A stretch of 64,000 nucleotides of DNA from Trypanosoma brucei (GCA_000002445.1 CP000068.1:544001-608000); one strand, 5' to 3'. Counted from the first letter of the stretch, positions 19,741 through 45,204 are shown. Notes: generated by a model not told the origin, from the letters alone. Numbers and translations: made by a program.

Positions 19741-19965
19741 CGTGTAGCGAAGTGAATTCTCTCCCCCTCGAGTGGTGTGGGAGGACGACTGAGTGCCTTT
19801 CTTTGTGTGCTCAGAAGCCCATGTACCCCATTGTATTGGCTGTGCCGCTACTTTTGTACGGGTTGCATGCATGAGCAAATATATATCCCCTTTTCTTCGC
19901 CTCTAATTTGCATGGAAGTGGAACGAGCACATTTCACTCACACAAGGATTTGATTAAAGGAAGAA

Positions 19966-20289
19966 ATGTCGCAGCAGCTTGCATGCACATACGCCTCCTT
20001 GATACTCTCTGGCAGCGGGAATGTTGACGCCGCGAAGCTGCTTGCCGTAACAAATGCTGCTGGCGTTACTGTCAGTAAAGGTATGGCAGAAGCTTTTGCC
20101 TCAATTCTTGGTGGTATTTCCATTGATGAGGTTCTTGGCAATATTGCGTTCGGTGGTGGTGCGCCTGTTGCGTCTAGTGGAGGCGCCGCTGCTGCTGCTC
20201 CTGCCGCCGGTGGCGCACCTGCTGCCGCTGCTCCTGCAAAGGAGGAAGAGGAAGATGATGATGATATGGGCTTCGGTCTTTTTGACTAA
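19966..20289 (+). CDS. RPLP2: 60S acidic ribosomal protein P2.
   Basis: 107 aa with an Ala/Gly-rich hinge and the diagnostic acidic C-terminus EEEEDDDDMGFGLFD of ribosomal P proteins. ATG at 19966. Confidence 0.9.
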   Translation: MSQQLACTYASLILSGSGNVDAAKLLAVTNAAGVTVSKGMAEAFASILGGISIDEVLGNIAFGGGAPVASSGGAAAAAPAAGGAPAAAAPAKEEEEDDDDMGFGLFD

Positions 20290-20979
20290 GCGCGCTCCTA
20301 GCAGTGTGATTGTTGCTCGCACAGAAAGAGAGTTTGTTTCATTCCTTTTTTTAATTTTTATTTGTTCTTTGTTTTCAAGTAACTGGTACACGCTGTGGCC
20401 ACCCTGTTGACAGTTTAAAAAAAAACCTATTGTGTTTTAGTGTATGTTTTGTTTTGCAAACACGAAACGCTGCTTTCTAAAAAAAAAAATCACTTTTAGC
20501 ACCTTTTAAACGACACCTCCTATCACTCTCCAGTAAGGCAAAAAGATAGAAGATATATAATGGCGATCATACACCTGGTGGCTTTCTTTTCAAAGACTTT
20601 GCGTATCAGTTAATTACGTTTACGACATGACGTCTTTGCGAGTGCAACCTACTTGTTGGGTAAGTGTGCACTTGGCTGTTTTTGCTTATCGGTTCTTGTA
20701 TTGTGTTTAAAGGGCAGTGCCTCTGATGTCAGAATGTGTGGTGTGTGTTGCTGTGATCCGTCATCATACGCTACAGTTTTGTATGGTCGATGGCCGTATT
20801 TATGTACAGTAAAGAAAATGTGAGCGATGTCTGCAATATTATTTACTGGATACTCTGCCCAAGTGCTGTTTGTGGACGTGATTCTATGATGTTTGTAAAC
20901 TGTTAATTGTCGCTGTCACTAACCGTACATAATGCTCTACTGTGTGGACACGCTTGTTTACTCTAGTGTGTATGCGTGT

Positions 20980-23816
20980 ATGTGTGTGTGCTATTGATGT
21001 GCTTGCTTCCAACAACACTCGTTCTGTCTACCTTTGTTTACTCTTGTTAGACTCTCGAAGCGATTACCGTGCAATATTTCGTTGATAACAAGGTGGAATG
21101 ATGTGTACCGCAACCGTTATGAGGACTCCCTCTGCGGTTTTGTGCCTGCTGCTTGCGGCAACCCTGACTCTCAGCACTCCCGTTGCCGTTCGCGGGGAAG
21201 TGCTTAAGGATGCGACCCCTGCAGTTGTGACAGTCTGGTATAACGCCACGAGCGGCGGTTTCTATGCTACGGATGGTCTTGCATCTGGTAAGTATGCTGC
21301 AATCGTGAATGTGAGTAACACTTTCAACAAGACCGGTTGGGACGTTGTGACTGCTGTGGCAAACGATGGTTTCATGCATTTGCCTGGAGAAGCGGAACCG
21401 TCAGCAGAGCGCGTGCTACTGGCATACAAGGCTGTAGGTTTTGGTGAAGGCTACGCCACGTATGAGAGCATGAAGGCTTCCATAAACAATACGTTTGAGG
21501 GTCCTGAGGGTCTCTCTGCGCTTTTGTCTGATGCGCCGCAGGCACAACACTGGATTGAAGAGCACGTTCGGTATATGGACGCTGCGAAGTTCGAGAGCAG
21601 TGCATTCTACACCCAGCTGCGAAACATGTTAGCTCTCATTGATGGTATGGTTGCTGGTTACAACGCTCGTGCCCCTGCTGACGAACGGTTGGATCGGATG
21701 AAGCTGTTAATGTACAACATGCAAGCAGAGATTGGTGACATTGTGAGGGCCACATCCCCTGCGGAGGTATTGGATGATATGCGTCAGATGATGCCGCGGT
21801 GGTTTGTTGACACCCACTGTTCTGCCTTTGTAAAGGTCGTAAAGGATGACATCTACTTTGGTCACGCCACGTGGAGCAGCTTCAATACTATGTTGAGGCA
21901 GTACAAAACGTATGCCTTCGGCGGGCGCTTCGTTACCATGTCATCTTACCCAGGTTTGGCGCACAGTGTGGATGATTGGTACATGACACACAAGCGCCTC
22001 GCAGTCATGGAGACCACCAACGTCATACACAATGCAACGCTGCTGCGCAACCATGTCGGTTCCTCTAGCGTGGCTACGTTTCTGCGTGCGATGATCGCGA
22101 ACTTCATTGCGGTGGACGCCCCCTCATGGGTGTCGAACTTCAGCAGGGAAAGCAGTGGGGCGTACAACAATCAGTGGATGGTGCTCAACATGGGTGCAGT
22201 GGAGTCCGAGGCGATGTTTAAAAACATGGCACCCAACACCTTTTGGGTGTTAGAGCAGCTCCCTGGTACTGCTCCTCCGTTGGGTATAACATCTAAGGAT
22301 ATGACCAGCGTGCTGAACACCACTGGGTACTGGGCGAGTTATAACAGACCGTACTTCCCCAATGTGTACAATCTTTCAGGTACGCTGAAGATGCAGGAGG
22401 AATACGGTGACTTCTATTCTTACAAGAATTACTCACGCGCCCGGATATTTGAACGTGATCAGGGTTCTGTGGTCGATATTGAAAGCATGAAGAGGCTGAT
22501 GCGTTACAACAACTACACGAAAGACCCATTTTCTCTTATTCCCAACTGCACTGGTGCTGTTGGTATGGATGACGATGGTAATGTGACTAATGTCTGCAAG
22601 CCTCCATACAGTGCGATGCTTTCAATCGCAGCACGTGGTGATTTGAACCCTCCTGGTAATGCGACCGAGTACGGCCCACTTGTCCGAAGTGTAGGACACG
22701 TAAATAGTGGAGCTATCGATGCAAAGATAGCGACGTGGACGGGGATGGTGAAGAATCCTGAAAGTTATACTGCTCATGTTGTCTGTGGCCCGACGACCGA
22801 TAATCAACCACCGTTTCAGTGGGTGGACGGCATGTTCGATCCCATGCCCCCAACATATGGGTTGCTGAAATTGTATAACTTTAGCTTCGTAGCCATGGAG
22901 ACGCCGTTTTTTAAAAGCGATGTTGTCGACGTAGTTTGGTGGATTATTTCGGGAATTGGAATAGGAGCTACTATTTTATTACTATCTATTGTTCTTTATT
23001 ATAATACCGAGTGTAGTGTCGGTGTTGATGAGGATGAACTTCTTCCCGAAGAGGCTGAAGGTCTTATAGATCCTCAGAACTAGAAGCTATGATAATGACG
23101 CACTTACCTCTCCTCTCTTCCCGAGGTCTAGATATTGCTGAACTGATGTGATGTGCGGTGGGGAGCTGAGAGGTGCACCAGATGCAATGTACCAATGCTT
23201 TAAATGAACATTGTGTCTCCTCTGCTATGTAGGTAGTAGTTTTTATACTTGAGGGAGTAGCGTGTCTGTGTGTGGTTGCTCTGTGCTTGAAAGGGAGTGT
23301 GATGAGCGCTCCGGTTCCCGCAGAATCGGTTACAACTAAGGTAACTCTCTCCCTGATTTTGCTTGCTTCCTACGGGGATTCATATGAGGCCCGTAATGAC
23401 GGAAAAAGAAGGTGCGAGAAAGAATGGTAAGTGTAAAAAATGGGAATGGTAATAAGCGATGGATGTAGGAAGTGAGGTGTATAGGAATAGAAGAGATGAA
23501 TGTGCCCGCGCGTGAATATGTTGTGGTGGTACCAGCGATGTGGCATGTAGTGTTGGGGCGCAGTGTAGAGAAAGGAAGAGATCAGTTGCCGCATAGTTGA
23601 TGCAGCACTCCTCCCCATATCTTTTACATCCTCCTCTAGTCGTACGTTAACGCGTGGTGATTCCCTCGCATGCCATTGCCGCTGTTGCCAGTGCTGTGTT
23701 CCGTCCGTTCTGTGCGTCCCGTGAGTAATACACGGCGTAGTGTTGCATTGTTTTTGTTTTTGTTTTTGCTTACCTTCCTTTTGTTCCAACGCACATTCCA
23801 ATGCGTGTGTTTTTTA
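20980..23816 (+). repeat. Segmental duplication unit B: the second p67 gene plus flanks.
   Basis: Same boundaries as unit A, with only a few SNPs in the flanks (for example gaggtgtagat versus gaggtctagat), apart from the replaced TM-encoding patch at 22907-23029. Confidence 0.9.
21098..23083 (+). CDS. p67: p67 paralogue (661 aa). It is identical to copy 1 except for T41A, a V-to-A change, and a replaced transmembrane segment (FFKSDVVDVVWWIISGIGIGATILLLSIVLYYNTECSVGVD).
   Basis: The nucleotide sequence is near-identical to 17028..18836. The two copies diverge over about 120 bp (22907-23029) and reconverge on the shared tail, DEDELLPEEAEGLIDPQN. Confidence 0.85.
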   Translation: MMCTATVMRTPSAVLCLLLAATLTLSTPVAVRGEVLKDATPAVVTVWYNATSGGFYATDGLASGKYAAIVNVSNTFNKTGWDVVTAVANDGFMHLPGEAEPSAERVLLAYKAVGFGEGYATYESMKASINNTFEGPEGLSALLSDAPQAQHWIEEHVRYMDAAKFESSAFYTQLRNMLALIDGMVAGYNARAPADERLDRMKLLMYNMQAEIGDIVRATSPAEVLDDMRQMMPRWFVDTHCSAFVKVVKDDIYFGHATWSSFNTMLRQYKTYAFGGRFVTMSSYPGLAHSVDDWYMTHKRLAVMETTNVIHNATLLRNHVGSSSVATFLRAMIANFIAVDAPSWVSNFSRESSGAYNNQWMVLNMGAVESEAMFKNMAPNTFWVLEQLPGTAPPLGITSKDMTSVLNTTGYWASYNRPYFPNVYNLSGTLKMQEEYGDFYSYKNYSRARIFERDQGSVVDIESMKRLMRYNNYTKDPFSLIPNCTGAVGMDDDGNVTNVCKPPYSAMLSIAARGDLNPPGNATEYGPLVRSVGHVNSGAIDAKIATWTGMVKNPESYTAHVVCGPTTDNQPPFQWVDGMFDPMPPTYGLLKLYNFSFVAMETPFFKSDVVDVVWWIISGIGIGATILLLSIVLYYNTECSVGVDEDELLPEEAEGLIDPQN

Positions 23817-24540
23817 GCGTACTGTAGTTGATTCATTTGTGGCGGTCGTTTTGCGTTGGTGTCATTTGTTCGTGTAATTTGTTGTTGTTGTTGAAGCAGC
23901 CTGCAGTTGCCAATTTTTTGTCTTTGATTTTTTTAAAAAATTTTTCGTTTGTTATGGTTTTGTTGTTCTATATCTTTTTTAAAATTTCTTTCCTTTCCTT
24001 TTATATTTCTTCGTTAAGTGGCTTTCATTGTGGTGGTGCTAATGCTTTTTTCCCTTGACGGGCTGCTTGTGTATGGTAACGGGGAAGGTGATGAAAGTGA
24101 ATCCTTACACAGCAACCTTAATGTTTCGGAGGGACGCCAATTAGTTTCATTGTATCGTTTGATGCATCGCCTTCATTGTACGGAGGAACGTGATACGGAG
24201 GAAGAAGGTACTCATCCCGTAGTATTTGCCAAATTTTTGGGAGCACAATGGAATGGGCCGTCGTCGGTGCATGATGATGTTGTGCCAACTGCCGGCGTCA
24301 TTGTTAATAATAACATCAATAGGGCTGCAAATGGCATGGAAGACATGTTTATACGCGAAGGGGCAGATGGTGGCTTCAGTAATGGCGCGTTAACTGTCAG
24401 CACGTCTACGCGAACTCTCGGATGCGTTCAGGTACCGTTGGATGATGCAAATGCCGTTTTGTTCTCGTGCACGGCATCCGATACAATGAGGCGGGAGGTA
24501 TGATTAGCTAAAGAGGACTCGATGCAAACCAAGACTTCCA

Positions 24541-25184: not shown

Positions 25185-25920
25185 GTTACTAAAATAGTAG
25201 AGAATTGTGTGTGTGGAACCTCCTGCCCAACTTTAGCCGCATTTTTCTTTTTTACTTTCTCAGTCATTTGTTTTCCCGACTCCGTTTGGTCTTTTTTGTT
25301 TCTTTGTTTTGTTATTATTATCATTATTACCTTAGGTGCCGAAGAGGGACGTACAAGCGCCCCTCTTTTCCCCCCATCAACCCCCCCAAAAAAAAGTGAA
25401 TATTTAAGTTACCAGTACCAACATCAAAAGTGTCATAAAACAGTGAAAGTTTGATTTCAACTAGGCGTGCGTTGCAAGTGGGCAAAGAAAATAAATAAAT
25501 AAATAATAATAGCGAGGAAATATATCGCAGTCCGTGAGGAAAAAAAAACGGTAGAAAAAAACGAAAGAGGTTGGGAGGAACTTAACTGACGCAAAGGAGA
25601 AAAAGGAAAAAGAAAAGAGCAGCGTTCTCCTTAGCCAACACCCTCGTTTACTTATTGGCTCATTTTCTTTTTTTTAAAGAGCTCGTTTTTGTATTTTCAT
25701 TGCTTGAACTACGTTATTATTATTGCAGGCAGTGGAAGAGGAAGGGCGGACGAAAAAAAAAACAAGAAAACAGGACTGAAGCATTTTGGGGATATTTTCT
25801 TTCTTTTTGTTACTCCTTCTGCACAAGTACGCAACGAAAAACTACGGGGGAAAAAACTGTTTTGTCCATAAATATCAATATAAAAATATATCTGTTGAAA
25901 ACACGTGCATCAGCGTCGTG

Positions 25921-28900
25921 ATGCAACAACAGCAACAACAGAAACACTTGGTAGGCTCCGGCGCTACGAACAACACAATGGGTAGAGTTGATTTCTTACA
26001 ATTACCCGCTTCATGTAATGCTGAAGGCAGCAGCAGGTGGCGTTGGCGGTTTCAAACACAGCAACAGCGGCATCAACACGGTGACAGTGACAGCGGTGAA
26101 GGTGAAGATGGAGGAGTTTTTTATAACGTTCAGAGAGTTGAGGATGATGGGAAGGAGACTGACATCATGTATGTTGCTAAAACTATAGGAAACGAAGTGC
26201 TTCACCATGAAGTAACCCCACGTTACCCAAACAGTCGCAGCTCCATAAATGACGAGTTATCATCTGCGACCGGAAGCAGCAGCAGCAATGATATATGTGA
26301 GGAGCCCCTCCCTCTTTACTTTATCCGTAATGCGGGGAAGCGCAGGATCGGCCCCGTGTGCGAGTCCGTCACGGAGAAAGAACGAACCCACTTTTCCACC
26401 GAGAGTGTCAGAAAAGCCGATATTACCCCGCCTACTGAACCTTTACAGGTGGAAATAATATCAAAACGAACCTCATACATCGGCTTACATGTATTTCAGG
26501 AACAGAATGAGATTGTGGCGCACGTAGAAGAAGAGAAACACAGCAGCGACGATTCCGATTACCGAGAACAACGTGAAGGCGACACCCCAATGGTCCCAAG
26601 CTTTGTGTACTACAGTGCGCCGCGCCGCGGGCAACACACTTCTGAAAGCGAGGAATATGCCACAGAGTTTGATGAGAGTTGCGCACCAGCAACAAACAAT
26701 GAACACCACCACGCGTCACCACTAAAACCAACACTAATAAAAAAACGATGTTATATACCTGTACCCTCACCACCCGAAGGCCATACAAAGGTCAGCATGA
26801 GTTACCATACATCCATACAATCAGCAACACCACCTTCGGAAATAACATCGCCATTGCAAGTTAGCTTTATACGCAGCAAGTTATGCGGTAACTACAGGTC
26901 AGAAGCTGAGGCACAGCTTCCGATGAGTATTGAAGCGATAAAAGGTGCTTTCCAGAGGTCAGATAAGTCAGCAAAAGCAACGCTGCCCCCGTCTATGAGA
27001 CGGCAAGCAAGGGAGTGCAAGCCACAGCGTCAGCAGCAACCTGAATGCTTTCGTGAGCGAAGAGAAGTAAGTTCTTCTTCATCTGAAGACGAATACAACG
27101 GAGTGATGATACCCGCAAAAGAAGGCAGGAGGAATGCACACACATTTAAAAAGGTTAACACTGTCAGAGAACAAGAACACAAAAACGGGGGTCTAAAAGA
27201 AGAGCAACAGATGAGGGAGAGCGATATTCAAAAGAATAGAGCACAACAAGTTGTTTTTGGTTTTATGCCAAAGCAAAATCACAAACACACAGAGGTGCAC
27301 GAAGCATGTGATGAGCAAATGCCAGTGAGTGTGTGTGGTATTCTCGAACAACCACTTTCTATGGCTCATGTGTTTGACAGCTTAATGAAAGATGCGGAGG
27401 TGCACGAAGCATGTGATGAGCAAATGCCAGTGAATGTGTGTGATATTCTCGAACAACCACTTTCTATGGCTCATGTGTTTGACAGCTTAATGAAAGATGC
27501 GGAGGTGCACGAAGCATGTGATGAGCAAATGCCAGTGAATGTGTGTGATATTCTCGAACAACCACTTTCCATGGCTCATGTGTTTGACAGCTTAATGAAA
27601 GATGCGGAGGTGCACGAAGCATGTGATGAGCAAATGCCAGTGAATGTGTGTGATATTCTCGAACAACCACTTTCTATGGCTCATGTGTTTGACAGCTTAA
27701 TGAAAGATGCGGAGGTGCACGAAGCATGTGATGAGCAAATGCCAGTGAGTGTGTGTGATATTCTCGAACAACCACTTTCCATGGCTCATGTGTTTGACAG
27801 CTTAATGAAAGATGCGGAGGTGCACGAAGCATGTGATGAGCAAATGCCAGTGAGTGTGTGTGGTATTCTCGAACAACCACTTTCCATGGCTCATGTGTTT
27901 GACAGCTTAATGAAAGATGCGGAGGTGCACGAAGCATGTGATGAGCAAATGCCAGTGAATGTGTGTGATATTCTCGAACAACCACTTTCTATGGCTCATG
28001 TGTTTGACAGCTTAATGAAAGATGCGGAGGTGCACGAAGCATGTGATGAGCAAATGCCAGTGAATGTGTGTGATATTCTCGAACAACCACTTTCCATGGC
28101 TCATGTGTTTGACAGCTTAATGAAAGATGCGGAGGTGCACGAAGCATGTGATGAGCAAATGCCAGTGAATGTGTGTGATATTCTCGAACAACCACTTTCT
28201 ATGGCTCATGTGTTTGACAGCTTAATGAAAGATGCGGAGGTGCACGAAGCATGTGATGAGCAAATGCCAGTGAGTGTGTGTGATATTCTCGAACAACCAC
28301 TTTCCATGGCTCATGTGTTTGACAGCTTAATGAAAGATGCGGAGGTGCACGAAGCATGTGATGAGCAAATGCCAGTGAATGTGTGTGATATTCTCGAACA
28401 ACCACTTTCTATGGCTCATGTGTTTGACAGCTTAATGAAAGATGCGGAGGTGCACGAAGCATGTGATGAGCAAATGCCAGTGAATGTGTGTGATATTCTC
28501 GAACAACCACTTTCCATGGCTCATGTGTTTGACAGCTTAATGAAAGATGCGGAGGTGCACGAAGCATGTGATGAGCAAATGCCAGTGAGTGTGTGTGATA
28601 TTCTCGAACAACCACTTTCCATGGCTCATGTGTTTGACAGCTTAATGAAAGATGCGGAGGTGCACGAAGCATGTGATGAGCAAATGCCAGTGAGTGTGTG
28701 TGGTATTCTCGAACAACCACTTTCCATGGCTCATGTGTTTGACAGCTTAATGAAAGATGCGGAGGTGCACGAAGCATGTGATGAGCAAATGCCAGTGAGT
28801 GTGTGTGGTATTCTCGAACAACCACTTTCCATGGCTCATGTGTTTGACAGCTTAATGAAAGATGCGGAGGTGCACGAAGCATGTGATGAGCAAATGCCAG

Positions 28901-31900
28901 TGAATGTGTGTGGTATTCTCGAACAACCACTTTCTATGGCTCATGTGTTTGACAGCTTAATGAAAGATGCGGAGGTGCACGAAGCATGTGATGAGCAAAT
29001 GCCAGTGAATGTGTGTGATATTCTCGAACAACCACTTTCCATGGCTCATGTGTTTGACAGCTTAATGAAAGATGCGGAGGTGCACGAAGCATGTGATGAG
29101 CAAATGCCAGTGAGTGTGTGTGGTATTCTCGAACAACCACTTTCCATGGCTGATGTGTTTGACAGCTTAATGAAAGATGCGGAGGTGCACGAAGCATGTG
29201 ATGAGCAAATGCCAGTGAATGTGTGTGGTATTCTCGAACAACCACTTTCCATGGCTCATGTGTTTGACAGCTTAATGAAAGATGCGGAGGTGCACGAAGC
29301 ATGTGATGAGCAAATGCCAGTGAATGTGTGTGATATTCTCGAACAACCACTTTCCATGGCTCATGTGTTTGACAGCTTAATGAAAGATGCGGAGGTGCAC
29401 GAAGCATGTGATGAGCAAATGCCAGTGAGTGTGTGTGGTATTCTCGAACAACCACTTTCTATGGCTCATGTGTTTGACAGCTTAATGAAAGATGCGGAGG
29501 TGCACGAAGCATGTGATGAGCAAATGCCAGTGAGTGTGTGTGGTATTCTCGAACAACCACTTTCCATGGCTCATGTGTTTGACAGCTTAATGAAAGATGC
29601 GGAGGTGCACGAAGCATGTGATGAGCAAATGCCAGTGAATGTGTGTGATATTCTCGAACAACCACTTTCCATGGCTCATGTGTTTGACAGCTTAATGAAA
29701 GATGCGGAGGTGCACGAAGCATGTGATGAGCAAATGCCAGTGAGTGTGTGTGGTATTCTCGAACAACCACTTTCTATGGCTCATGTGTTTGACAGCTTAA
29801 TGAAAGATGCGGAGGTGCACGAAGCATGTGATGAGCAAATGCCAGTGAATGTGTGTGATATTCTCGAACAACCACTTTCTATGGCTCATGTGTTTGACAG
29901 CTTAATGAAAGATGCGGAGGTGCACGAAGCATGTGATGAGCAAATGCCAGTGAATGTGTGTGATATTCTCGAACAACCACTTTCCATGGCTGATGTGTTT
30001 GACAGCTTAATGAAAGATGCGGAGGTGCACGAAGCATGTGATGAGCAAATGCCAGTGAGTGTGTGTGGTATTCTCGAACAACCACTTTCCATGGCTCATG
30101 TGTTTGACAGCTTAATGAAAGATGCGGAGGTGCACGAAGCATGTGATGAGCAAATGCCAGTGAGTGTGTGTGGTATTCTCGAACAACCACTTTCCATGGC
30201 TCATGTGTTTGACAGCTTAATGAAAGATGCGGAGGTGCACGAAGCATGTGATGAGCAAATGCCAGTGAATGTGTGTGATATTCTCGAACAACCACTTTCC
30301 ATGGCTGATGTGTTTGACAGCTTAATGAAAGATGCGGAGGTGCACGAAGCATGTGATGAGCAAATGCCAGTGAGTGTGTGTGGTATTCTCGAACAACCAC
30401 TTTCTATGGCTCATGTGTTTGACAGCTTAATGAAAGATGCGGAGGTGCACGAAGCATGTGATGAAAAAACAATCTTACTTGTTGTGCGTGAGACAAATGT
30501 GGTTGTACATCAACTGTGCGCTGAGAGAGAGCTGTCTCCGCTATTGAGGTTTGGTCGGTATTTGAAGTCGGTTATTGGTACCGTTTGCAGTGTTGTAGGT
30601 GGGGTAGTCGGGTTAGGGACTTTATCTCCCCATCTTTTTAAGGGCTTCGTCGTGGAGGGGAAGAAGACTTCGTGTTTAATACCGAGGGTTTCTGGATATC
30701 CCTTCAAGAAGTGCTCTTACTTACCAAAGGGGTCATTGATGGTTGTTATGTTGATGGATGCTGAAGGGCGGCAGGTCCTCACAAAACATTTCGTATTGAA
30801 TAGTGGTAGCCTTGGTCTTTTCAAGGAATTAACTGTAATGGCAGATGAGGATGCGGCCTCGCGGCAGGACAGGGTGTTGAACGTAAGCCGAAGGTTGCGA
30901 AATGCCGTAAAACTCATTGGTGGTATCGAGGGTTGTGTGAGTGTGGCAGATTCACCTCAGAACCCGGGGAGGTTGAGGCTCCAAGTGATGCCGAGGCACG
31001 TTCGCACCTCCAAGCTGATTTCGTTGTGGGAAGTGAGCGTGATTCCTAGTATAATAATCACCGAAATTGCAAGTAAGCCGGACCTTTTTTTGTTTAGTTT
31101 GAGTGGTGGGATTGCACACTATTCCATGAAAGTCCCCCGTGCCGCATGTAGAGGCGACACGCGTAACATGTCGTGGATTTATGAAAAAGGAGAGATTCAA
31201 ACTGACGCATTGGATAAGCTGTCGGTGCGACGATGCCGACACAGACCCAACTGTGGAGATGGGTTGTCCACCCATTGTTTGACTGTAGAGGCGGTGCAAA
31301 ACCTTATGCACGGTGAAATGGTGGAAGTCGGCCTCGAGCATCTTTCCGGTTCCAAGGGGGAAACGTCGAGGCAAGAGTGCGGTAACTCTTTGACAAATGG
31401 AAGAGGGAGGTCAACCTCATCAGTTGCAATATCTGCAGTACCAGACGTGAGAGAGTCCGCTATCGACGACCAGGTTATGAGGGTGGTGCCGTGGTCGCCA
31501 AGCGCATTCGTGCGTGACCCGATAGTATCGCGGGATCGACGGGTTCTTGGCCACAGCGATGCTCCGCGGCTGTCGCCGTCGTTAGGCTCACTGTCCTTAG
31601 CGACAGGTGAAAGTGACCAGCATCCAGCGCACTGCGCATTGGTACGACTGGGGCCGTTGTCGTCGGCAAAACAGGAAACCAGGACCAACGAAAACCGGGT
31701 GGGGGCACTGCAGGTCGCCGGGGACGACACAAGCTTGAATGGGTTGTATGAACGAAAGAGATTGGGTCTACTGGACTTCGTGCGAGCTGGCAGACCTGAC
31801 GCCCCAAAAACCAAGGTCCTTTCCGACAGAACGCAGAGCGGAAGTGACTCTCCACAAGGAATGGGCGTTCGGCTGCCGCGTACGGCTGTTGCCAGACAAT

Positions 31901-33795
31901 TCCTTCCCGATCGAACGTACGGTGGTGTCGAGAGTGCCATTTTTGGTTGTGATGTGTCTCAGTGGCCTGGTGATTTTGAGAAACGGGAACAGCATTGTCA
32001 GAAAAGCCTCTCAGACATCATACCCATCACTCAGCGGGAGGCAGAGGAGTTAGGGAGAGAGCGACACTTCATCGAGAGGATACTCGGCAAGGCATCACGC
32101 CTAAGCCAACGTAACGTGACAGTGAGGGAGGTTGAGGCTGACGAGGTAGCAATGGAGTTGATATTTCAAAGCGAGGATCTCTCTCAGGCGTACAAGTGTC
32201 AAGTCTCACTTCTTGCTAAAGCATACCTTGAGGAGGTTGAGGCTGCGGCTGTTCGACGGGTTATCGAATTGTCTAGGGGCTCCCCTCGTGCGGATACTTT
32301 ACAACATGCGCTGGCGGTACGTGAAGGTCGGCGGATGCAACTTTCAGAGAAGGCAGCAAACGAGATGAAGGCTGGGACTGCTATTCATAACGGTCCAATC
32401 GACAGAGCCAACCCCCGTGGCGTGCCCCAGCCCTGGGCGCACCTGTGCCACCACGATCTAGTGGCAGATGGCAACGCACAAGCTATCGCTGCTGCTTGTA
32501 GAGGTGCCCAGCATTTTGGCACGAAAATGTTTGCGTACATTTGTGAGCTGTCGAAACAGAAGGAGGAGAAGAATGAGTCAATTTTCAATAAGTACCCATT
32601 CTTACCGCCGCTACCGTACGGTGTTCCTCTGTCGGACATAGAACTTTCCACCGACCTGGAGTTTAGGCAGTGTGCACTCAAGCTACGGGAGAATCCCAAC
32701 GACGAAGGCAGTAAAGATGAGATGCGCTGTATTGTGTTACGACTTGCAAAGGTCCATGCGATCGACCGCGTTAACACGGCTCCCGAAGGGTTAAGAGGGC
32801 TGTGGGATACAATTTTGCAACATCATCCTGTATCCGAGTGTGATAACGGGAGTGGCTTCTATGGCAACACTGCGGTTTGTGTTGATGAGGATCGTCTCCC
32901 GCAGCTTACTGGCCCAACTGTTGCCGATGTGAGAGTACTGCGGGGATTGGGCGGTGGGTCTGCTTATAAGCAATTCATTGCCTGTTGCAGGAAAGACCTA
33001 CCCTGCGCGTTGAAACGGTGGGGCACGCAGCTGGCACTTGGTGGAGCTGATGCTTTTCACTTAAGCACAGAGGACCTCGGACTCATCAGGGGTTTCTATA
33101 ATGGCGCAGCAGGGGGCAGTGGCAAGTTGTTGAGCTACGGAAACTTCGAGGAGTTTTTGGTGCAAACTCTGGGAAGTCGTCCAGACGTAACATTAGCGGG
33201 GCTCAACCAGCTGCTCCAAACGACATTTGCAGCACTGAGTAGACCACATGTTGTAAAGTTTGATGACTTTACCCAGTTCCTTACGGCGCTTGCTGCTTGC
33301 GAGTATCTTGGTGGTGGCAACCCTCTTCCAGCAGTGAGACGGCGCCCTGCTGGGAAACTGGCCCCTCTGCTGGTAACACCTCCTCGTGCATCCGTGGCGA
33401 CGCGTTTCCCCGATTCGTCGAGACATCGCTTCGATTTAGTCCCACTCTGCCCAAGAGAAACACGGTTACAGCCTTTAAGGGTTAATAAGACAACTGACTC
33501 TCCTGTGCCTGTATCGGTCGCCTCTGAAACGACAGAGGTGACTACGTTTGCAGGTGATGGTGCACACGAGCGGCGGTGCAGCACCGGAGCTGGTGGTGCG
33601 TTCCGACGCGCCGCGCTGCAGCGGCCATCAACTGCTCAGTGGAGCGTTGTGCCGAGAGAACGTGTTCCGCAACACGCGTCACCGCCCTTGATGCCACGCA
33701 ACGCAGAGGTATGGACACCTGAGGTTACTGGAAAAAGCGGAAGTGAGTCTGTTACGCCTGAAAGCACATCGGAATCGGGAAATGAAGAGGCGTAA
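25921..33795 (+). CDS. Very large repetitive protein (about 2,625 aa). It contains 30 tandem copies of a 35-aa unit, EVHEACDEQMPV[S/N]VC[G/D]ILEQPLSMA[H/D]VFDSLMKDA, between an N-terminal Q/S-rich region and a roughly 1,100-aa unique C-terminal region.
   Basis: A single 8 kb + strand ORF. The track start at 25786 is a TTG within a pyrimidine tract, and the first ATG is at 25921 (MQQQQQQKH). The repeats span 27292-30465. Confidence 0.7.
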   Translation: MQQQQQQKHLVGSGATNNTMGRVDFLQLPASCNAEGSSRWRWRFQTQQQRHQHGDSDSGEGEDGGVFYNVQRVEDDGKETDIMYVAKTIGNEVLHHEVTPRYPNSRSSINDELSSATGSSSSNDICEEPLPLYFIRNAGKRRIGPVCESVTEKERTHFSTESVRKADITPPTEPLQVEIISKRTSYIGLHVFQEQNEIVAHVEEEKHSSDDSDYREQREGDTPMVPSFVYYSAPRRGQHTSESEEYATEFDESCAPATNNEHHHASPLKPTLIKKRCYIPVPSPPEGHTKVSMSYHTSIQSATPPSEITSPLQVSFIRSKLCGNYRSEAEAQLPMSIEAIKGAFQRSDKSAKATLPPSMRRQARECKPQRQQQPECFRERREVSSSSSEDEYNGVMIPAKEGRRNAHTFKKVNTVREQEHKNGGLKEEQQMRESDIQKNRAQQVVFGFMPKQNHKHTEVHEACDEQMPVSVCGILEQPLSMAHVFDSLMKDAEVHEACDEQMPVNVCDILEQPLSMAHVFDSLMKDAEVHEACDEQMPVNVCDILEQPLSMAHVFDSLMKDAEVHEACDEQMPVNVCDILEQPLSMAHVFDSLMKDAEVHEACDEQMPVSVCDILEQPLSMAHVFDSLMKDAEVHEACDEQMPVSVCGILEQPLSMAHVFDSLMKDAEVHEACDEQMPVNVCDILEQPLSMAHVFDSLMKDAEVHEACDEQMPVNVCDILEQPLSMAHVFDSLMKDAEVHEACDEQMPVNVCDILEQPLSMAHVFDSLMKDAEVHEACDEQMPVSVCDILEQPLSMAHVFDSLMKDAEVHEACDEQMPVNVCDILEQPLSMAHVFDSLMKDAEVHEACDEQMPVNVCDILEQPLSMAHVFDSLMKDAEVHEACDEQMPVSVCDILEQPLSMAHVFDSLMKDAEVHEACDEQMPVSVCGILEQPLSMAHVFDSLMKDAEVHEACDEQMPVSVCGILEQPLSMAHVFDSLMKDAEVHEACDEQMPVNVCGILEQPLSMAHVFDSLMKDAEVHEACDEQMPVNVCDILEQPLSMAHVFDSLMKDAEVHEACDEQMPVSVCGILEQPLSMADVFDSLMKDAEVHEACDEQMPVNVCGILEQPLSMAHVFDSLMKDAEVHEACDEQMPVNVCDILEQPLSMAHVFDSLMKDAEVHEACDEQMPVSVCGILEQPLSMAHVFDSLMKDAEVHEACDEQMPVSVCGILEQPLSMAHVFDSLMKDAEVHEACDEQMPVNVCDILEQPLSMAHVFDSLMKDAEVHEACDEQMPVSVCGILEQPLSMAHVFDSLMKDAEVHEACDEQMPVNVCDILEQPLSMAHVFDSLMKDAEVHEACDEQMPVNVCDILEQPLSMADVFDSLMKDAEVHEACDEQMPVSVCGILEQPLSMAHVFDSLMKDAEVHEACDEQMPVSVCGILEQPLSMAHVFDSLMKDAEVHEACDEQMPVNVCDILEQPLSMADVFDSLMKDAEVHEACDEQMPVSVCGILEQPLSMAHVFDSLMKDAEVHEACDEKTILLVVRETNVVVHQLCAERELSPLLRFGRYLKSVIGTVCSVVGGVVGLGTLSPHLFKGFVVEGKKTSCLIPRVSGYPFKKCSYLPKGSLMVVMLMDAEGRQVLTKHFVLNSGSLGLFKELTVMADEDAASRQDRVLNVSRRLRNAVKLIGGIEGCVSVADSPQNPGRLRLQVMPRHVRTSKLISLWEVSVIPSIIITEIASKPDLFLFSLSGGIAHYSMKVPRAACRGDTRNMSWIYEKGEIQTDALDKLSVRRCRHRPNCGDGLSTHCLTVEAVQNLMHGEMVEVGLEHLSGSKGETSRQECGNSLTNGRGRSTSSVAISAVPDVRESAIDDQVMRVVPWSPSAFVRDPIVSRDRRVLGHSDAPRLSPSLGSLSLATGESDQHPAHCALVRLGPLSSAKQETRTNENRVGALQVAGDDTSLNGLYERKRLGLLDFVRAGRPDAPKTKVLSDRTQSGSDSPQGMGVRLPRTAVARQFLPDRTYGGVESAIFGCDVSQWPGDFEKREQHCQKSLSDIIPITQREAEELGRERHFIERILGKASRLSQRNVTVREVEADEVAMELIFQSEDLSQAYKCQVSLLAKAYLEEVEAAAVRRVIELSRGSPRADTLQHALAVREGRRMQLSEKAANEMKAGTAIHNGPIDRANPRGVPQPWAHLCHHDLVADGNAQAIAAACRGAQHFGTKMFAYICELSKQKEEKNESIFNKYPFLPPLPYGVPLSDIELSTDLEFRQCALKLRENPNDEGSKDEMRCIVLRLAKVHAIDRVNTAPEGLRGLWDTILQHHPVSECDNGSGFYGNTAVCVDEDRLPQLTGPTVADVRVLRGLGGGSAYKQFIACCRKDLPCALKRWGTQLALGGADAFHLSTEDLGLIRGFYNGAAGGSGKLLSYGNFEEFLVQTLGSRPDVTLAGLNQLLQTTFAALSRPHVVKFDDFTQFLTALAACEYLGGGNPLPAVRRRPAGKLAPLLVTPPRASVATRFPDSSRHRFDLVPLCPRETRLQPLRVNKTTDSPVPVSVASETTEVTTFAGDGAHERRCSTGAGGAFRRAALQRPSTAQWSVVPRERVPQHASPPLMPRNAEVWTPEVTGKSGSESVTPESTSESGNEEA
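27292..30465 (+). repeat. Tandem array of 30 copies of a 105-bp coding unit, plus 24 bp of a 31st copy.
   Basis: By direct reading, the distance from the first GAG GTG CAC to the last is 3,150 bp, exactly 30 x 105. The units are more than 97% identical. Variable codons are agt/aat, ggt/gat and cat/gat, plus a silent tct/tcc. Confidence 0.95.
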
Positions 33796-34528: not shown

Positions 34529-36058
34529 ATGCAATTCTCGACCTACATGACGAATATTGTTTCGGAGGTGAAGTCCTTTGGGAAGGCATATGTTGACTCG
34601 TTGGTGGCCCCCCAAGATGATGAAGATAATAAGAAGGAGCGTAGTGTTGGCGCAACCTTTGGGAGTGCAAGTGACGGCACTGATGTCGGCCATTCTTCGG
34701 TAGGCGCACTCGGGGATGTGCTCAGCAATTTAGTTTCAACCGCATCGCCTTCCGGTTCTCGTCTTATGGATGATAATGATGATGCTAACAGTGCCGGAGG
34801 CTTGAGTAAAATTGTAGAGCACGGGACTATGTGTAGTCATAACACCTGGGAGAGTAATTATTACAACGGCGCGGCGGTGTGGGAGCGCGGTACGGTAGAA
34901 CAGGGCTTCGCTGAGTGTGTGTCAGACGGCTCCGTCCATCCGTCACCCCTTGTTTTCAAGACGTCGCCAGAGACCACCGAAGCGCCATTAGTGGCATCGA
35001 CGACGAGCCTGCAGAAAAAAAATCTCAAGAGAGGAAATACGATCCGGTCTAAATTTGGTGCGGTGAAGCTGGTGTTGGACACTGCGCCCACATCTTCAAG
35101 TGCTGCTTTGACAGATACCGCTTCGGTTCCTCAAATCAGTCGGAGGCACGCGGAGGTGAATATGGTTAAGTTACCGCCCACACCATCGCCATGGGAAGAA
35201 AGGAGGGGCGCCGTGCTTCAACTCCTTAACCGCCACGCAAACAGGCGGTCGCTTCTGGTCCCATGGGCGCGCAATTTTTTGCGCAGCTTCGTTGACAGTG
35301 TGGCCAACCAGCTTCCGCCAGCTATCACGGAGAAGGGATTATCACTCGAAGCGGCACGACAATCAACGGAGCAGCTGCCGTTGGAAGGTTCATGGAACGA
35401 AATAGAGTCCTCGCTCAGGAAATGTTTGACACAAGCCATACCCATAGAGGTGTGGGGCCCTTGTGCCGGGAGCAGAGTGGAAGCTATTACCACTCCTCCC
35501 AAGTCGAGCCCGCTGTGCTCCTTTAACAATGCAGATTTGAGCCTATTGCTTCAGAGCTCGCTGCAGTCGCTACAGCAATGGCATCATCGCAGGCAGTTGT
35601 ATTCGGTGCTGGTATCTAAAAAGCAGGTGCAACGCCACCAGCGCCACTCACTGGATCATGCGGTGGAGCAGTGCATGATAGACATGTATTCCTCTTGTTT
35701 TTTTCCACACATACGTGTGGCGGCTGAGAGGGCGAAAGAATTACTGCAGCGTTGCGTTCCTCAACATGAGGAGGTAAAGGGACCAATGCAAGTCGCTACC
35801 CTCAATAATTCATTCGACCAGTGGGTAGCGAAGGTAATGTCACTTTTTTGTTCAGAGCTTACTGCTGCAGACGGCGAGTGGCAGCGCAGGGTCGACCACA
35901 CGGCGGGCGCAACTACATGCACCGCATCCGACAGTGAGGACGTTGTAGATGCTGCCGTAAGCGGTGTGGAAAGTGGAACGGCTGCGCTGTGGCTCATGTG
36001 TGAGGTGGCTGTGATGTCGTTGTTATTGGTTTGTACTCTTTTCTGTGAAGCTGAATAG
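34529..36058 (+). CDS. Hypothetical protein (509 aa).
   Basis: ATG at 34529 after a polypyrimidine tract at 34430-34470. GC-rich ORF in the + strand array. No recognised domains. Confidence 0.5.
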   Translation: MQFSTYMTNIVSEVKSFGKAYVDSLVAPQDDEDNKKERSVGATFGSASDGTDVGHSSVGALGDVLSNLVSTASPSGSRLMDDNDDANSAGGLSKIVEHGTMCSHNTWESNYYNGAAVWERGTVEQGFAECVSDGSVHPSPLVFKTSPETTEAPLVASTTSLQKKNLKRGNTIRSKFGAVKLVLDTAPTSSSAALTDTASVPQISRRHAEVNMVKLPPTPSPWEERRGAVLQLLNRHANRRSLLVPWARNFLRSFVDSVANQLPPAITEKGLSLEAARQSTEQLPLEGSWNEIESSLRKCLTQAIPIEVWGPCAGSRVEAITTPPKSSPLCSFNNADLSLLLQSSLQSLQQWHHRRQLYSVLVSKKQVQRHQRHSLDHAVEQCMIDMYSSCFFPHIRVAAERAKELLQRCVPQHEEVKGPMQVATLNNSFDQWVAKVMSLFCSELTAADGEWQRRVDHTAGATTCTASDSEDVVDAAVSGVESGTAALWLMCEVAVMSLLLVCTLFCEAE

Positions 36059-36366
36059 CAAATTGAAGAGTAGGTGCATAAATATTTGTCTGCTTTGTCC
36101 ATTGCTTTTGGTTTTGCTTTGCTTTGCTTTGCCATTAGCCACCCGTCCATAAATAAACACAAACCTTAACTTCAGTCCTTTGGTTCTATTTGAACCGTAT
36201 ACGTATACCTCGACATCGTTTCTTCAACTCTTTGTTTCTTCTCTTTCCTCCCCAATTCCATGTTTTTGGTTGAATGAACGTCCCTTTACTCAGGGTAGGC
36301 TACTCTGCAAAGCAGAGCAGGACATAGCTGCAGTCCCCGGTGGTTGCACCGGAGTTTACGTTTCGG

Positions 36367-45099: not shown

Positions 45100-45204
45100 T
45101 TTCTGTGTGTGTGTGTGTGCACATGTCATTTCCTGCTGTTCCCTCCTCCCACTTTTGCTCTCCGTCTCTCACCTTTTTTTTCCTTATTATTCTACTTTCC
45201 TGCT
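45100..45204 (+). promoter_or_regulatory. Polypyrimidine tract immediately upstream of the coiled-coil gene ATG at 45205.
   Basis: ttcctgctgttccctcctcccacttttgctctccgtctctcaccttttttttccttattattctactttcctgct. Confidence 0.55.

What the first reader, a model, noticed from the sequence alone, without database searches (positions are those of the whole stretch)
27292..30465. Thirty near-perfect 105-bp coding repeats built from two repeat haplotypes plus recombinants
The 35-aa unit EVHEACDEQMPVxVCxILEQPLSMAxVFDSLMKDA is repeated exactly 30 times.

The variation is not random. Units are mainly NVCD or SVCG types. There are a few recombinant units: SVCD at units 5, 10 and 13, and NVCG at units 16 and 19. 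A third site, H to D (MADV), occurs in units 18, 26 and 29. This pattern is the signature of concerted evolution by unequal crossing-over or gene conversion.

Each unit carries two Cys residues and is strongly acidic. The array is embedded in a protein of about 2,600 aa that has a large unique C-terminal domain. The repeat number in any assembly is likely to be an underestimate or to vary between strains. I do not recognise the protein family. It could be a cytoskeletal or flagellar repetitive protein of the kind common in trypanosomes.
Basis: seen in the sequence. Interest (0 to 1): 0.55.

Follow-up and report, generated by a model that had tools for sequence, protein, structure and literature searches.

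The report
Lineage-specific acidic repeat in Tb927.5.1850
The 30 near-identical 35-amino-acid repeats are real and lie in an uncharacterised Trypanosoma brucei gene (Tb927.5.1850) whose relatives in other trypanosomatids carry a different, flagellum-type repeat at the same place, so T. brucei has swapped the repeat module of a conserved protein and keeps the new array uniform by recombination.

Summary
Window 27292-30441 holds 30 in-frame 105-bp units plus a 24-nt partial unit.

The ORF (first ATG at 25921, 2,624 aa) is identical to T. b. brucei TREU927 XP_844859.1/Q57ZQ4. It is gene Tb927.5.1850, "hypothetical protein, conserved". I found no paper that mentions it, and TrypTag records no cell line and no localisation.

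The C-terminal ~460 aa form a domain conserved across kinetoplastids. Downstream synteny (Tb927.5.1860, Fidgetin, ecotin/ISP) establishes orthology. Every non-brucei orthologue checked with Pfam has DUF7623 repeats upstream of this domain; DUF7623 is also found in proteins annotated FLAM3 and calpain. T. brucei keeps one relic unit and has the unrelated 35-aa array instead.

Copy number differs between assemblies (30, 13, 10 and 5). Variants private to one strain are shared by many of its units, which indicates concerted evolution.

Function is inferred only: a flagellum- or cytoskeleton-associated scaffold with a strongly acidic, probably helical spacer. This is a new variant of a known kind, of moderate interest.

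The parts
25921..33795 (+). Complete CDS of Tb927.5.1850 (old ID Tb05.1P6.650): 2,624 aa plus stop, equal to XP_844859.1 / AAZ11300.1 / UniProt Q57ZQ4
   Evidence: ORF and translation. Exact-sequence look-up. The TrypTag C-terminal tagging primer for Tb927.5.1850 matches 33711-33792 exactly.
25921..27291 (+). N-terminal 457 aa. Hydrophilic (GRAVY -1.03), with a Q-run and Ser/acidic patches. No match outside the T. brucei group among the sequences collected.
   Evidence: phmmer against all collected orthologues hits only T. brucei-group proteins. tblastn of orthologue N-termini against the window finds nothing here. dN/dS against T. b. gambiense is 0.23, from 8 synonymous and 7 non-synonymous differences.
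27292..30441 (+). Thirty complete 105-bp (35-aa) units with consensus EVHEACDEQMPV[N/S]VC[D/G]ILEQPLSMA[H/D]VFDSLMKDA. Four variable nucleotide columns (38, 47, 69, 76) and nine DNA haplotypes.
30442..30465 (+). Partial 31st unit (EVHEACDE), the 3' edge of the array
30559..30639 (+). Gly-rich hydrophobic stretch, aa 1547-1573 (YLKSVIGTVCSVVGGVVGLGTLSPHLF). Kyte-Doolittle peak 1.83. Borderline as a transmembrane segment.
   Evidence: No N-terminal signal-like hydrophobic segment is visible in the translation.
31006..31950 (+). Region from aa 1696 where similarity to the T. congolense orthologue begins
   Evidence: phmmer aligns C-terminal-piece residues 189-1098 to P0022 residues 417-1321
31951..33330 (+). 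C-terminal domain conserved across kinetoplastids (aa 2011-2470). All-helical; model residues about 40-285 have pLDDT mostly near or above 90.
   Evidence: Deep search found 18 hits, 13 at E<=1e-10. Alignment A1. AlphaFold2 model. dN/dS 0.24.
32599..32772 (+). Single relic DUF7623 unit (aa 2227-2284, ...YPFLPPLPYGVPLSDIELSTDLEF...)
   Evidence: Pfam PF24610 scores 21.5-23.5 bits, below the 27-bit gathering cut-off. An orthologue-derived DUF7623 HMM scores 25 bits at this site.
32956..33309 (+). EF-hand-pair-like helical subdomain (aa ~2346-2463). The loop corresponding to the EF-hand-like loop of the Leishmania-clade orthologues has no acidic residues in T. brucei.
33331..33792 (+). Basic, Ser/Thr/Pro-rich C-terminal tail (aa 2471-2624)
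   Evidence: model pLDDT below 50 from residue 466 (aa 2465) to the end of the modelled segment (aa 2480), which covers only the first ~10 tail residues

Best explanation
The array is a genuine coding minisatellite inside Tb927.5.1850.

**What the gene is.** It is the T. brucei orthologue of a kinetoplastid-wide family of giant repetitive proteins. The family is defined by a conserved, all-helical C-terminal domain. That domain contains one DUF7623-like unit and an EF-hand-like pair. The gene sits at a conserved position upstream of Tb927.5.1860, Fidgetin and the ecotin-like ISP gene.

**What differs in T. brucei.** In the other lineages the region upstream of this domain is an array of DUF7623 units. 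In the T. brucei group it is instead a lineage-specific 457-aa N-terminus followed by tandem copies of an unrelated 35-aa unit. The unit is strongly acidic, has two Cys and two His, and is probably helical.

**How the array evolves (shown).** It is homogenised and resized by unequal crossing-over and gene conversion. This explains why units within a strain share private variants and why copy number differs between assemblies.

**What the protein does (inferred).** It is a flagellum- or cytoskeleton-associated scaffold. The conserved C-terminal domain would provide the anchoring or partner interaction. The repeat array would be a length-variable, polyanionic spacer or multivalent binding platform, not a microtubule binder.

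**My confidence in each step.**
- Real coding array evolving by concerted evolution: about 0.9
- Orthology and replacement of the repeat module: about 0.85
- Scaffold or spacer role with flagellar association: about 0.35
For: **Array and identity.** Array structure. Exact identity to XP_844859.1/Q57ZQ4. Gene ID fixed by TrypTag primers for Tb927.5.1840.1850 and .1860 and by the Fidgetin assignment of Tb927.5.1870.

**Coding status.** The ORF is intact in TREU927 and in T. b. gambiense (2,031 aa). The unit length is a multiple of 3, and only the coding frame is open on the + strand. dN/dS is about 0.23-0.24 in the N-terminus and in the C-domain.

**Family and orthology.** The C-domain is found in T. 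congolense, T. vivax, T. grayi, T. conorhini, T. theileri, Leishmania, Porcisia, Novymonas, Strigomonas and Angomonas. Downstream synteny holds in T. vivax, T. theileri and T. grayi.

**Module replacement.** The five orthologues scanned carry Pfam DUF7623, with E-values from 1e-11 to 1e-73. T. conorhini has a precomputed PF24610 hit, and Porcisia, L. infantum and Angomonas members are named DUF7623 domain-containing by UniRef. T. brucei has only one relic unit. The orthologue N-termini find nothing else anywhere in the 64-kb window.

**Concerted evolution.** Linkage, four-gamete and block-duplication results. Variants private to one assembly are shared by many of its units, and copy numbers are 30, 13, 10 and 5.

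**Flagellar association, indirect.** Other DUF7623 carriers are annotated FLAM3 and calpain cysteine peptidase. A published enrichment analysis finds DUF7623 enriched together with FAZ1 signatures and flagellum-related terms in trypanosomatid repeat proteins (PMC13309793). LmxM.15.0440 fragments are detected in isolated L. mexicana flagella (Yanase 2024 Supplementary Data 1). They are the two most up-regulated proteins in attached haptomonads (bioRxiv 10.64898/2026.09.15.751656).

**Nature of the array.** Net charge -200 and pI 4.05. A low-confidence model predicts helices.
Against: - There is no localisation, expression or phenotype for Tb927.5.1850. TrypTag lists both termini as 'tagging attempted'.
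- The gene does not appear in the text held for three supplements I searched: Urbaniak 2012, Dejung 2016 and Savage 2016. Those files may be incomplete.
- The link from LmxM.15.0440 to this family rests on gene naming (LmjF.15.0440 in the name of P0014), not on a sequence comparison. The enrichment in attached-cell flagella was not significant: 5 against 1 spectra, p = 0.058.
- The repeat model has pLDDT 49.
- The EF-hand-like signal is statistically weak and the T. brucei loop is degenerate.
- dN/dS is above 1 in the 500 aa between the array and the C-domain, though on very few substitutions.
- Copy-number differences could partly reflect collapse of the array during assembly.
Confidence: 0.6

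Rival explanations
1. Divalent-metal binding or buffering array. Each unit would offer His3, Cys6, Cys15 and His26 plus eight carboxylates. Thirty units would then form a high-capacity Zn2+, Cu or Ca2+ binding module next to an EF-hand-like domain, comparable in principle to calsequestrin-type polyanionic buffers.
For: Each unit has two Cys and two His, at fixed positions in nearly all units, and net charge about -7. No Cys varies in any of the 58 units seen in four arrays. An EF-hand-like fold lies downstream.
Against: No known metal-binding motif or Pfam family matches the unit. His26 is replaced by Asp in three units. The spacing H-x2-C-x8-C-x10-H is not a recognised zinc-finger pattern, which is my own assessment. 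The model is too poor to test the geometry. The T. brucei EF-hand-like loop lacks liganding residues.
Confidence: 0.12
2. The array is a selectively near-neutral minisatellite that happens to lie in a tolerant, disordered part of the protein. Its sequence and length would have no specific function beyond not disrupting the conserved C-terminal domain.
For: Across the arrays, five variable sites are non-synonymous and two are synonymous, close to the neutral expectation. Copy number ranges from 5 to 30 between assemblies with the ORF otherwise conserved. The neighbouring 500 aa show dN/dS above 1. Lineage-specific repeat expansion is a general trait of the family: the DUF7623 hits recur at regular intervals of about 650-700 aa in Leishmania, Porcisia and T. 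vivax.
Against: The reading frame is kept over 3.15 kb. The unit is not low-complexity and is predicted helical. All orthologues keep some large repeat array upstream of the C-domain, which suggests that a long repetitive segment is itself required.
Confidence: 0.25
3. Immunodominant repetitive B-cell antigen, like GM6, MARP or T. cruzi H49/FRA. The repeats would mainly matter as a serological target or immune decoy.
For: High-copy perfect repeats are typical of trypanosomatid tandem-repeat antigens. Repeats of the calpain-like cytoskeletal protein H49 are recognised by antisera raised against them and stain the FAZ (PMC3214072).
Against: No serological data exist for this protein. It is absent from the main text of the repeat-antigen papers I searched. 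There is no signal peptide, and the protein is probably intracellular. Antigenicity would be a consequence of the repeats, not a cellular mechanism.
Confidence: 0.15
4. CRAM-like membrane protein. The acidic, Cys-containing repeats would be displayed outside the cell and anchored by the hydrophobic stretch at aa 1547-1573.
For: A hydrophobic 19-mer with Kyte-Doolittle score 1.83 lies about 40 aa after the array. The acidic, Cys-containing composition recalls CRAM, listed as 80 x ITGDCNETDDC with 1 TM in PMC2254594.
Against: There is no N-terminal signal sequence, and about 1,550 hydrophilic residues would have to be translocated. The segment is Gly-rich and borderline. More than 1,000 aa, including the conserved domain, follow it. 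There is no sequence similarity to CRAM repeats.
Confidence: 0.05

Closest known systems
[quoted passage not shown]
   Same: They share the conserved C-terminal helical domain (21-36% identity over about 460 aa, with invariant motifs such as NPR.VP..WA and YPF.P.LP.G). In T. vivax, T. theileri and T. grayi they share the position upstream of the Tb927.5.1860 homologue, Fidgetin and ecotin. All have a giant repetitive region upstream of the domain.
   Different: Their repeats are DUF7623 units of about 64-73 aa. T. brucei has an unrelated 35-aa unit, which scores only 3.7 bits against a DUF7623 profile, and a lineage-specific N-terminus. The genes upstream of the T. vivax and T. theileri orthologues have no match in the window.
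FLAM3 (Flagellar Member 3) and calpain-type repeat proteins (T. cruzi proteins annotated 'calpain cysteine peptidase'; H49 in the literature)
   Same: They carry DUF7623-type repeats, and T. brucei Tb927.5.1850 keeps one relic unit of this type. They are giant repetitive proteins. H49, a T. cruzi calpain-like protein with 68-aa repeats, was localised to the flagellum attachment zone. That H49's 68-aa repeat is itself DUF7623 is my inference and was not tested.
   Different: I detected no CLU or calpain domain in Tb927.5.1850. The similarity is confined to the one DUF7623-like unit. Its array is not DUF7623.
MARP-1/2, the microtubule-associated repetitive proteins of T. brucei (38-aa repeats; from my own knowledge, not tested here)
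   Same: They have very high-copy, near-identical tandem coding repeats of similar unit size in a giant T. brucei protein, and the array is hard to assemble.
   Different: As I recall, MARP repeats are basic and bind microtubules. This unit has net charge about -7, so binding to the acidic microtubule surface is unlikely. I did not run a sequence comparison.
CRAM (cysteine-rich acidic repetitive membrane protein of T. brucei)
   Same: It has acidic, Cys-containing tandem repeats, and a hydrophobic segment follows the array.
   Different: CRAM has a short repeat, listed as 80 x ITGDCNETDDC with 1 TM (PMC2254594). From my own knowledge it also has a signal peptide, and I see none here. Here more than 1,000 aa follow the borderline hydrophobic stretch.
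True Tb-292/Tb-291 membrane-associated proteins (EARLRAEE 8-aa repeats)
   Same: Only the name, which was transferred to the Leishmania chromosome-15 family member.
   Different: The L. infantum orthologue of Tb-292 is described as having an N-terminal region of about 160 aa, 30 repeats of an 8-aa motif and C-terminal transmembrane segments (PMC5619722). No such repeat is present in the translation here.

Membership tests
Kinetoplastid 'DUF7623-array plus conserved C-domain' orthologue group (LmjF.15.0440 / T. vivax KAH8612070 type) | Conserved C-terminal helical domain of about 460 aa | tested here: met
   phmmer E-values range from 5.5e-88 (T. congolense) to 4.3e-16 (Strigomonas, Angomonas) over C-terminal-piece residues ~500-960. 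Alignment A1 has 29 invariant columns.
Kinetoplastid 'DUF7623-array plus conserved C-domain' orthologue group | Conserved genomic position upstream of the Tb927.5.1860 homologue, Fidgetin-type AAA ATPase and ecotin/ISP | tested here: met
   T. vivax L003, T. theileri L002 and T. grayi L004 show the same downstream genes. tblastn of those neighbours hits window 34529-35494, 36367-38946 and 41390-43555.
Kinetoplastid 'DUF7623-array plus conserved C-domain' orthologue group | Array of DUF7623 units N-terminal to the C-domain | tested here: not met
   The orthologue-derived DUF7623 HMM hits only aa 2227-2284, inside the C-domain. The N-terminus gives no hit and the 35-aa repeat scores 3.7 bits. 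tblastn of the T. vivax, T. grayi and T. congolense N-termini finds nothing else in the window.
Pfam DUF7623 (PF24610) | Score at or above the Pfam gathering threshold of 27 bits | tested here: not met
   Scores are 21.5 bits (E 2.6e-4) and 23.5 bits (E 6.1e-5), covering only profile positions 1-39 of 64. This is a relic partial unit, so I do not file the protein as a Pfam member on its own score.
EF-hand pair | Sequence match to an EF-hand profile and a canonical 12-residue Ca2+-binding loop | tested here: inconclusive
Tandem arrays under concerted evolution (unequal crossing-over or gene conversion) | Variants private to one lineage but shared by many units of its array | tested here: met
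   47A (17 units), 69T (11) and 76G (3) occur only in TREU927. 1A and 85A occur only in T. b. gambiense, 1A also in T. b. equiperdum, and 57G in both. Only the column-38 polymorphism is shared by all arrays.
Tandem arrays under concerted evolution | Evidence of exchange within the array, and copy-number change | tested here: met
   All four gametes are present in 5 of 6 site pairs. Units 2-5 have the same haplotypes as units 7-10, with a 493-bp exact run. Unit counts are 30.2, 13.2, 10 and 5.2 in four assembled copies. I cannot exclude that assembly collapse contributes.
Tb-292/Tb-291 membrane-associated proteins | Array of the 8-aa EARLRAEE-type repeat plus C-terminal transmembrane segments | tested here: not met
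   No such motif is present in the translation. The family is described in PMC5619722 and listed as Tb927.3.5530, 49 x RLRAEEE with 2 TM, in PMC2254594.
Flagellum or FAZ cytoskeletal repetitive proteins | Experimentally shown flagellar, FAZ or cytoskeletal localisation | not testable with these tools
   TrypTag lists 'tagging attempted' for both termini, with no cell line and no image. The only support is indirect, from Leishmania LmxM.15.0440 in flagellar preparations.

The most novel reading that the evidence does not exclude
In the T. brucei lineage, a conserved flagellar protein has had its whole ancestral DUF7623 repeat module replaced by a newly arisen polyanionic Cys2/His2 35-aa repeat. 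The Leishmania counterpart of this protein is among the most strongly induced proteins when the parasite attaches to the insect through its flagellum. The new array would bind divalent metal, or act as a length-tunable spacer, in the attachment structure of tsetse salivary-gland epimastigotes. Strain-to-strain copy-number change would then alter that structure.
Probability: 0.1. Interest if true: 0.7.

Novelty: new variant of a known kind. Interest (0 to 1): 0.4.

Why it matters
Giant repetitive proteins make up much of the trypanosome flagellum attachment machinery and supply several of its diagnostic antigens. Here the anchoring domain and the genomic position are conserved across kinetoplastids, but the repeat module has been exchanged for an unrelated one in a single lineage. 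That makes this a natural experiment on what the repeats are for: a specific binding surface, or a generic long spacer.

The gene is uncharacterised, and TrypTag lists no cell line or localisation for it. Its apparent Leishmania counterpart is the protein most strongly up-regulated in attached haptomonads. That gives a concrete hypothesis to test in tsetse-attached stages.

In practical terms, the array is a 5- to 30-copy length polymorphism specific to the T. brucei group. It could serve as a strain-typing marker or as a candidate serological peptide. It also marks a place where reference assemblies are unreliable.

Tried and rejected
1. **Descent of the 35-aa unit from DUF7623.** By eye, MPVNVCDI...VFDSL resembles T. 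congolense VPLRFLDF...LFDSL. A profile built from 161 orthologue units gave the repeat only 3.7 bits, and on a different part of the model. Pfam gave no DUF7623 hit to four units. Rejected as unsupported.
2. **Pfam hits of the repeat itself.** Ribophorin_II_2nd, Annexin_3 and KaiB appear, with no individually significant stretch. These are summed-repeat artefacts.
3. **Word-index protein searches.** Searches with the N-terminus plus repeats and the N-terminus alone returned nothing. They did not even return the 98%-identical T. b. gambiense protein, so these negatives are uninformative. Lineage specificity rests only.
5. **AlphaFold2 of seven repeats.** pLDDT was 49, usable only as a hint of helicity.
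6. **The 'Tb-292-like' name of the Leishmania homologue.** This is a loose annotation. True Tb-292 is a different family.
7. **Gene fusion with the upstream neighbour.** The T. vivax and T. theileri upstream genes have no match in the window, so there is no support.
8. **Literature.** No main-text mention of Tb927.5.1850, Tb05.1P6.650, Q57ZQ4 or XP_844859. The gene is absent from the held supplement text of Dejung 2016, Savage 2016, Urbaniak 2012 and the 2026 repeat-landscape paper. Alsford 2011 is not held.
9. **T. congolense genomic context.** Not on record.

Full report
**1. The observation**

Tandem Repeats Finder reports a single array at 27292-30464, with period 105, 30.2 copies, 98% matches, no indels and score 6059. 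Cutting it into register gives 30 complete units (27292-30441) and a 24-nt partial unit, EVHEACDE, ending at 30465. All are in frame with the ORF 25786-33795 on the + strand.

Only four of the 105 columns vary:
- column 38 A/G, giving Asn/Ser13
- column 47 A/G, giving Asp/Gly16
- column 69 C/T, which is silent
- column 76 C/G, giving His/Asp26

NVCD occurs in 14 units and SVCG in 11.

The array carries net charge -200, 60 Cys and pI 4.05. On the + strand only the coding frame of the unit lacks stop codons.

**2. Identity of the gene**

All ORFs of 200 aa or more outside other ORFs are on the + strand, which is the layout of a kinetoplastid polycistronic unit. From the first ATG (25921) the product is 2,624 aa. 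It is identical to XP_844859.1 / AAZ11300.1 / UniProt Q57ZQ4, "hypothetical protein, conserved", of T. brucei brucei TREU927, on a 1,608,198-bp record.

The gene ID comes from the TrypTag primer tables:
- The C-terminal tagging primer for Tb927.5.1850 (old ID Tb05.1P6.650) matches window 33711-33792 exactly.
- The primers for Tb927.5.1840 and Tb927.5.1860 match 24421-24500 and 35976-36055.
- Tb927.5.1870 is the published Fidgetin homologue (PMC6144804). It corresponds to the AAA/Vps4_C ORF at 36340-39030.

Upstream lie two phospholipase-B-like ORFs. I take these to be the p67 genes, which is my own reading of the annotation.

TrypTag lists both termini of Tb927.5.1850 as "tagging attempted", so there is no localisation. 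No paper in the searchable library mentions the gene or its accessions in the main text.

**3. The family**

A full HMMER scan of 1.84 billion representatives with the 1,117 aa downstream of the array found 18 proteins. Apart from T. brucei-group copies, the strong hits are one protein each from T. congolense, T. vivax, T. grayi, T. conorhini, T. theileri, Porcisia, Leishmania, Novymonas, Strigomonas and Angomonas. [quoted passage not shown] All align over query residues ~500-960, which is protein aa ~2011-2470. Alignment A1 has 29 invariant columns.

Orthology is supported by synteny. In T. vivax, T. theileri and T. grayi the gene is followed by homologues of some or all of Tb927.5.1860, Fidgetin, the ecotin-like ISP and the next large ORF.

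All five orthologues I scanned have significant Pfam DUF7623 (PF24610) repeats N-terminal to the conserved domain. Source annotations or a precomputed Pfam hit indicate the same for T. conorhini, Porcisia, L. infantum and Angomonas. DUF7623 is also present in proteins annotated "Flagellar Member 3" and "calpain cysteine peptidase". A recent survey found it enriched together with FAZ1 signatures among trypanosomatid repeat proteins and describes it as associated with calpain-family proteases (PMC13309793). T. cruzi H49, a calpain-like protein with 68-aa repeats, has been localised to the flagellum attachment zone (PMC3214072). I did not test whether the H49 repeat is DUF7623.

The "Tb-292-like" label is misleading. 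True Tb-292 is an 8-aa-repeat membrane protein (PMC5619722; PMC2254594).

**4. What is different in T. brucei**

A DUF7623 profile built from 161 orthologue units finds just one unit in Tb927.5.1850, at aa 2227-2284 inside the conserved domain, scoring 25 bits. Pfam itself gives 21.5-23.5 bits, below its 27-bit cut-off. The N-terminal 457 aa give no hit, and the 35-aa repeat scores 3.7 bits.

Similarity to T. congolense starts only at aa 1696. The N-terminal parts of the T. vivax, T. grayi and T. congolense proteins find nothing else anywhere in the 64-kb window. None of the orthologues has a near-perfect 35-aa periodicity or the EVHEAC motif.

So the first ~1,700 residues, including the array, are specific to the T. 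brucei group. They occupy the place of the ancestral DUF7623 array. The genes upstream of the T. vivax and T. theileri orthologues also have no match in the window. That is compatible with a rearrangement at the 5' side, but it does not prove one.

The lineage-specific N-terminus is nevertheless under purifying selection between T. b. brucei and T. b. gambiense. dN/dS is 0.23, from 8 synonymous and 7 non-synonymous changes. The C-domain gives 0.24. The ~500 aa between the array and the C-domain give values above 1, on very few changes.

**5. How the array evolves**

TREU927 has nine DNA haplotypes. Columns 38 and 47, which are 9 bp apart, are strongly associated (14/2/3/11, Fisher p = 6e-4). 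Even so, all four gametes occur for 5 of the 6 site pairs.

Units 2-5 have the same haplotypes as units 7-10, with a 493-bp exact run. This indicates multi-unit duplication, although the permutation test is only marginal at p about 0.056. The three SVCD units are therefore probably one event that was later copied.

| Assembly | Units | Column 47 | Private or shared variants |
|---|---|---|---|
| T. b. brucei TREU927 | 30.2 | A in 17 units | 69T (11 units), 76G (3 units) |
| T. b. gambiense DAL972, chromosomal copy | 13.2 | G in every unit | 1A (Lys), 57G (silent), 85A (Asn) |
| T. b. gambiense DAL972, second partial copy | 10 | G in every unit | 1A, 57G, 85A |
| T. b. equiperdum (GCA_003543875.1) | 5.2 | G in every unit | 1A, 57G, plus a 1-bp deletion |

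The second T. b. gambiense copy sits next to N-gaps near the end of the record, so it is probably an unplaced allele. In the T. b. equiperdum assembly, Fidgetin is also split into two ORFs, so the 1-bp deletion is probably an indel error. The T. equiperdum OVI protein starts at the last repeat unit.

Asp16 (47A), 69T and 76G are thus TREU927-private yet present in many units. Only the Asn/Ser13 polymorphism is shared by all arrays. This is the signature of concerted evolution. It also implies that NVCG and SVCG are ancestral, and that NVCD is the derived type, not one of two primordial haplotypes.

**6. Structure and likely function**

AlphaFold2 on alignment A1 gives a confident all-helical core: model residues ~40-285 have pLDDT mostly near or above 90, and the overall mean is 70.2. 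A second helical subdomain (residues ~347-464) has pLDDT 64-79.

Seven repeats folded alone are predicted helical at pLDDT 49, which is a hint only. A Gly-rich hydrophobic stretch at aa 1547-1573 is borderline for a transmembrane helix. With no signal sequence and ~1,550 hydrophilic residues before it, a cytosolic protein is more likely.

There is indirect evidence from Leishmania. LmxM.15.0440a and c were detected in isolated flagella. Fragment c gave 5 spectra against 1 in attached versus non-attached cells, p = 0.058, which is not significant (Yanase et al. 2024, Supplementary Data 1). LmxM.15.0440b and c were the two most up-regulated proteins in haptomonads (bioRxiv 10.64898/2026.09.15.751656). 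The equation of LmxM.15.0440 with this family rests on gene naming, not on a sequence test.

My best mechanistic reading is a flagellum- or cytoskeleton-associated scaffold. It would be anchored through the conserved C-domain. Its upstream repeat module would work as a long spacer or multivalent platform. In T. brucei that module is polyanionic, and so it is not a microtubule binder of the MARP type. This step is inference, and I put it at about 0.35.

**7. Verdict**

The feature is real and correctly described, and the concerted-evolution reading is right in substance. The gene is already in the reference annotation but is uncharacterised. What is new here:
- it is placed in the DUF7623 orthologue family
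- its repeat module has been swapped in the T. brucei lineage
- the unit haplotypes have been re-polarised
- copy number spans 5-30 across assemblies

This is a new variant of a known kind, of moderate interest.

Noticed in passing
window 17028-19007 and 21098-23083 (+): The two tandem phospholipase-B-like ORFs, which I read as the p67 genes, are 94% identical overall. They are virtually identical up to aa ~600 and in the last ~17 aa. They are completely different across the transmembrane and juxtamembrane segment (aa ~601-645), as if that segment alone had been replaced.
   Followed up: partly
L001 (T. b. gambiense DAL972 FN554968.1, 1337568-1362136): A second, partial copy of the repeat gene (10 units, protein CBH11506.1) lies near the end of the chromosome-5 record. 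It is flanked by runs of N and sits next to an ISG65/LRR gene array. This is probably an unplaced allelic contig, which would imply a 10-unit and a 13-unit allele in one diploid strain.
   Followed up: partly
L005 (T. b. equiperdum CM010676.1), 18022-20450 and 11741: In this assembly the Fidgetin gene is split into ORFs of 408 and 279 aa, and repeat unit 5 has a 1-bp deletion. The assembly therefore probably carries indel errors, and its 5-unit array length should be treated with caution.
   Followed up: partly
window 39505-39969 (+): A 154-aa ORF (MTDRPPTLADFKAPYPEPG...) occupies the position of the ecotin-like serine peptidase inhibitor (ISP) gene seen in T. vivax, T. theileri, T. grayi and T. 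b. equiperdum.
   Followed up: partly
window 24018-24503 and 34529-36058 (+): Two flanking genes do have TrypTag localisations. Tb927.5.1840 is listed as 'endocytic, cytoplasm[points]' and Tb927.5.1860 as 'Golgi apparatus'. Neither has a Pfam domain.
   Followed up: no
window 45028-47076 (+): This ORF has an ODAD1 central coiled-coil domain (PF21773, E 3.8e-7, 29.9 bits against a cut-off of 27). It is a candidate outer-dynein-arm docking-complex subunit.
   Followed up: no
window 28409-28930, 28934-29455 and 29879-30400 (-): Three 173-aa antisense ORFs lie inside the array. They are by-products of the repeat: one reverse frame of the unit has no stop codon. They are not evidence of genes.
   Followed up: yes
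P0014 and P0012 (Leishmania and Porcisia orthologues): The DUF7623 hits in these 4,934-7,614-aa proteins recur at regular intervals of about 653-658 aa. T. vivax shows an interval of about 700 aa. Large, lineage-specific repeat amplification is therefore a general trait of the family.
   Followed up: no
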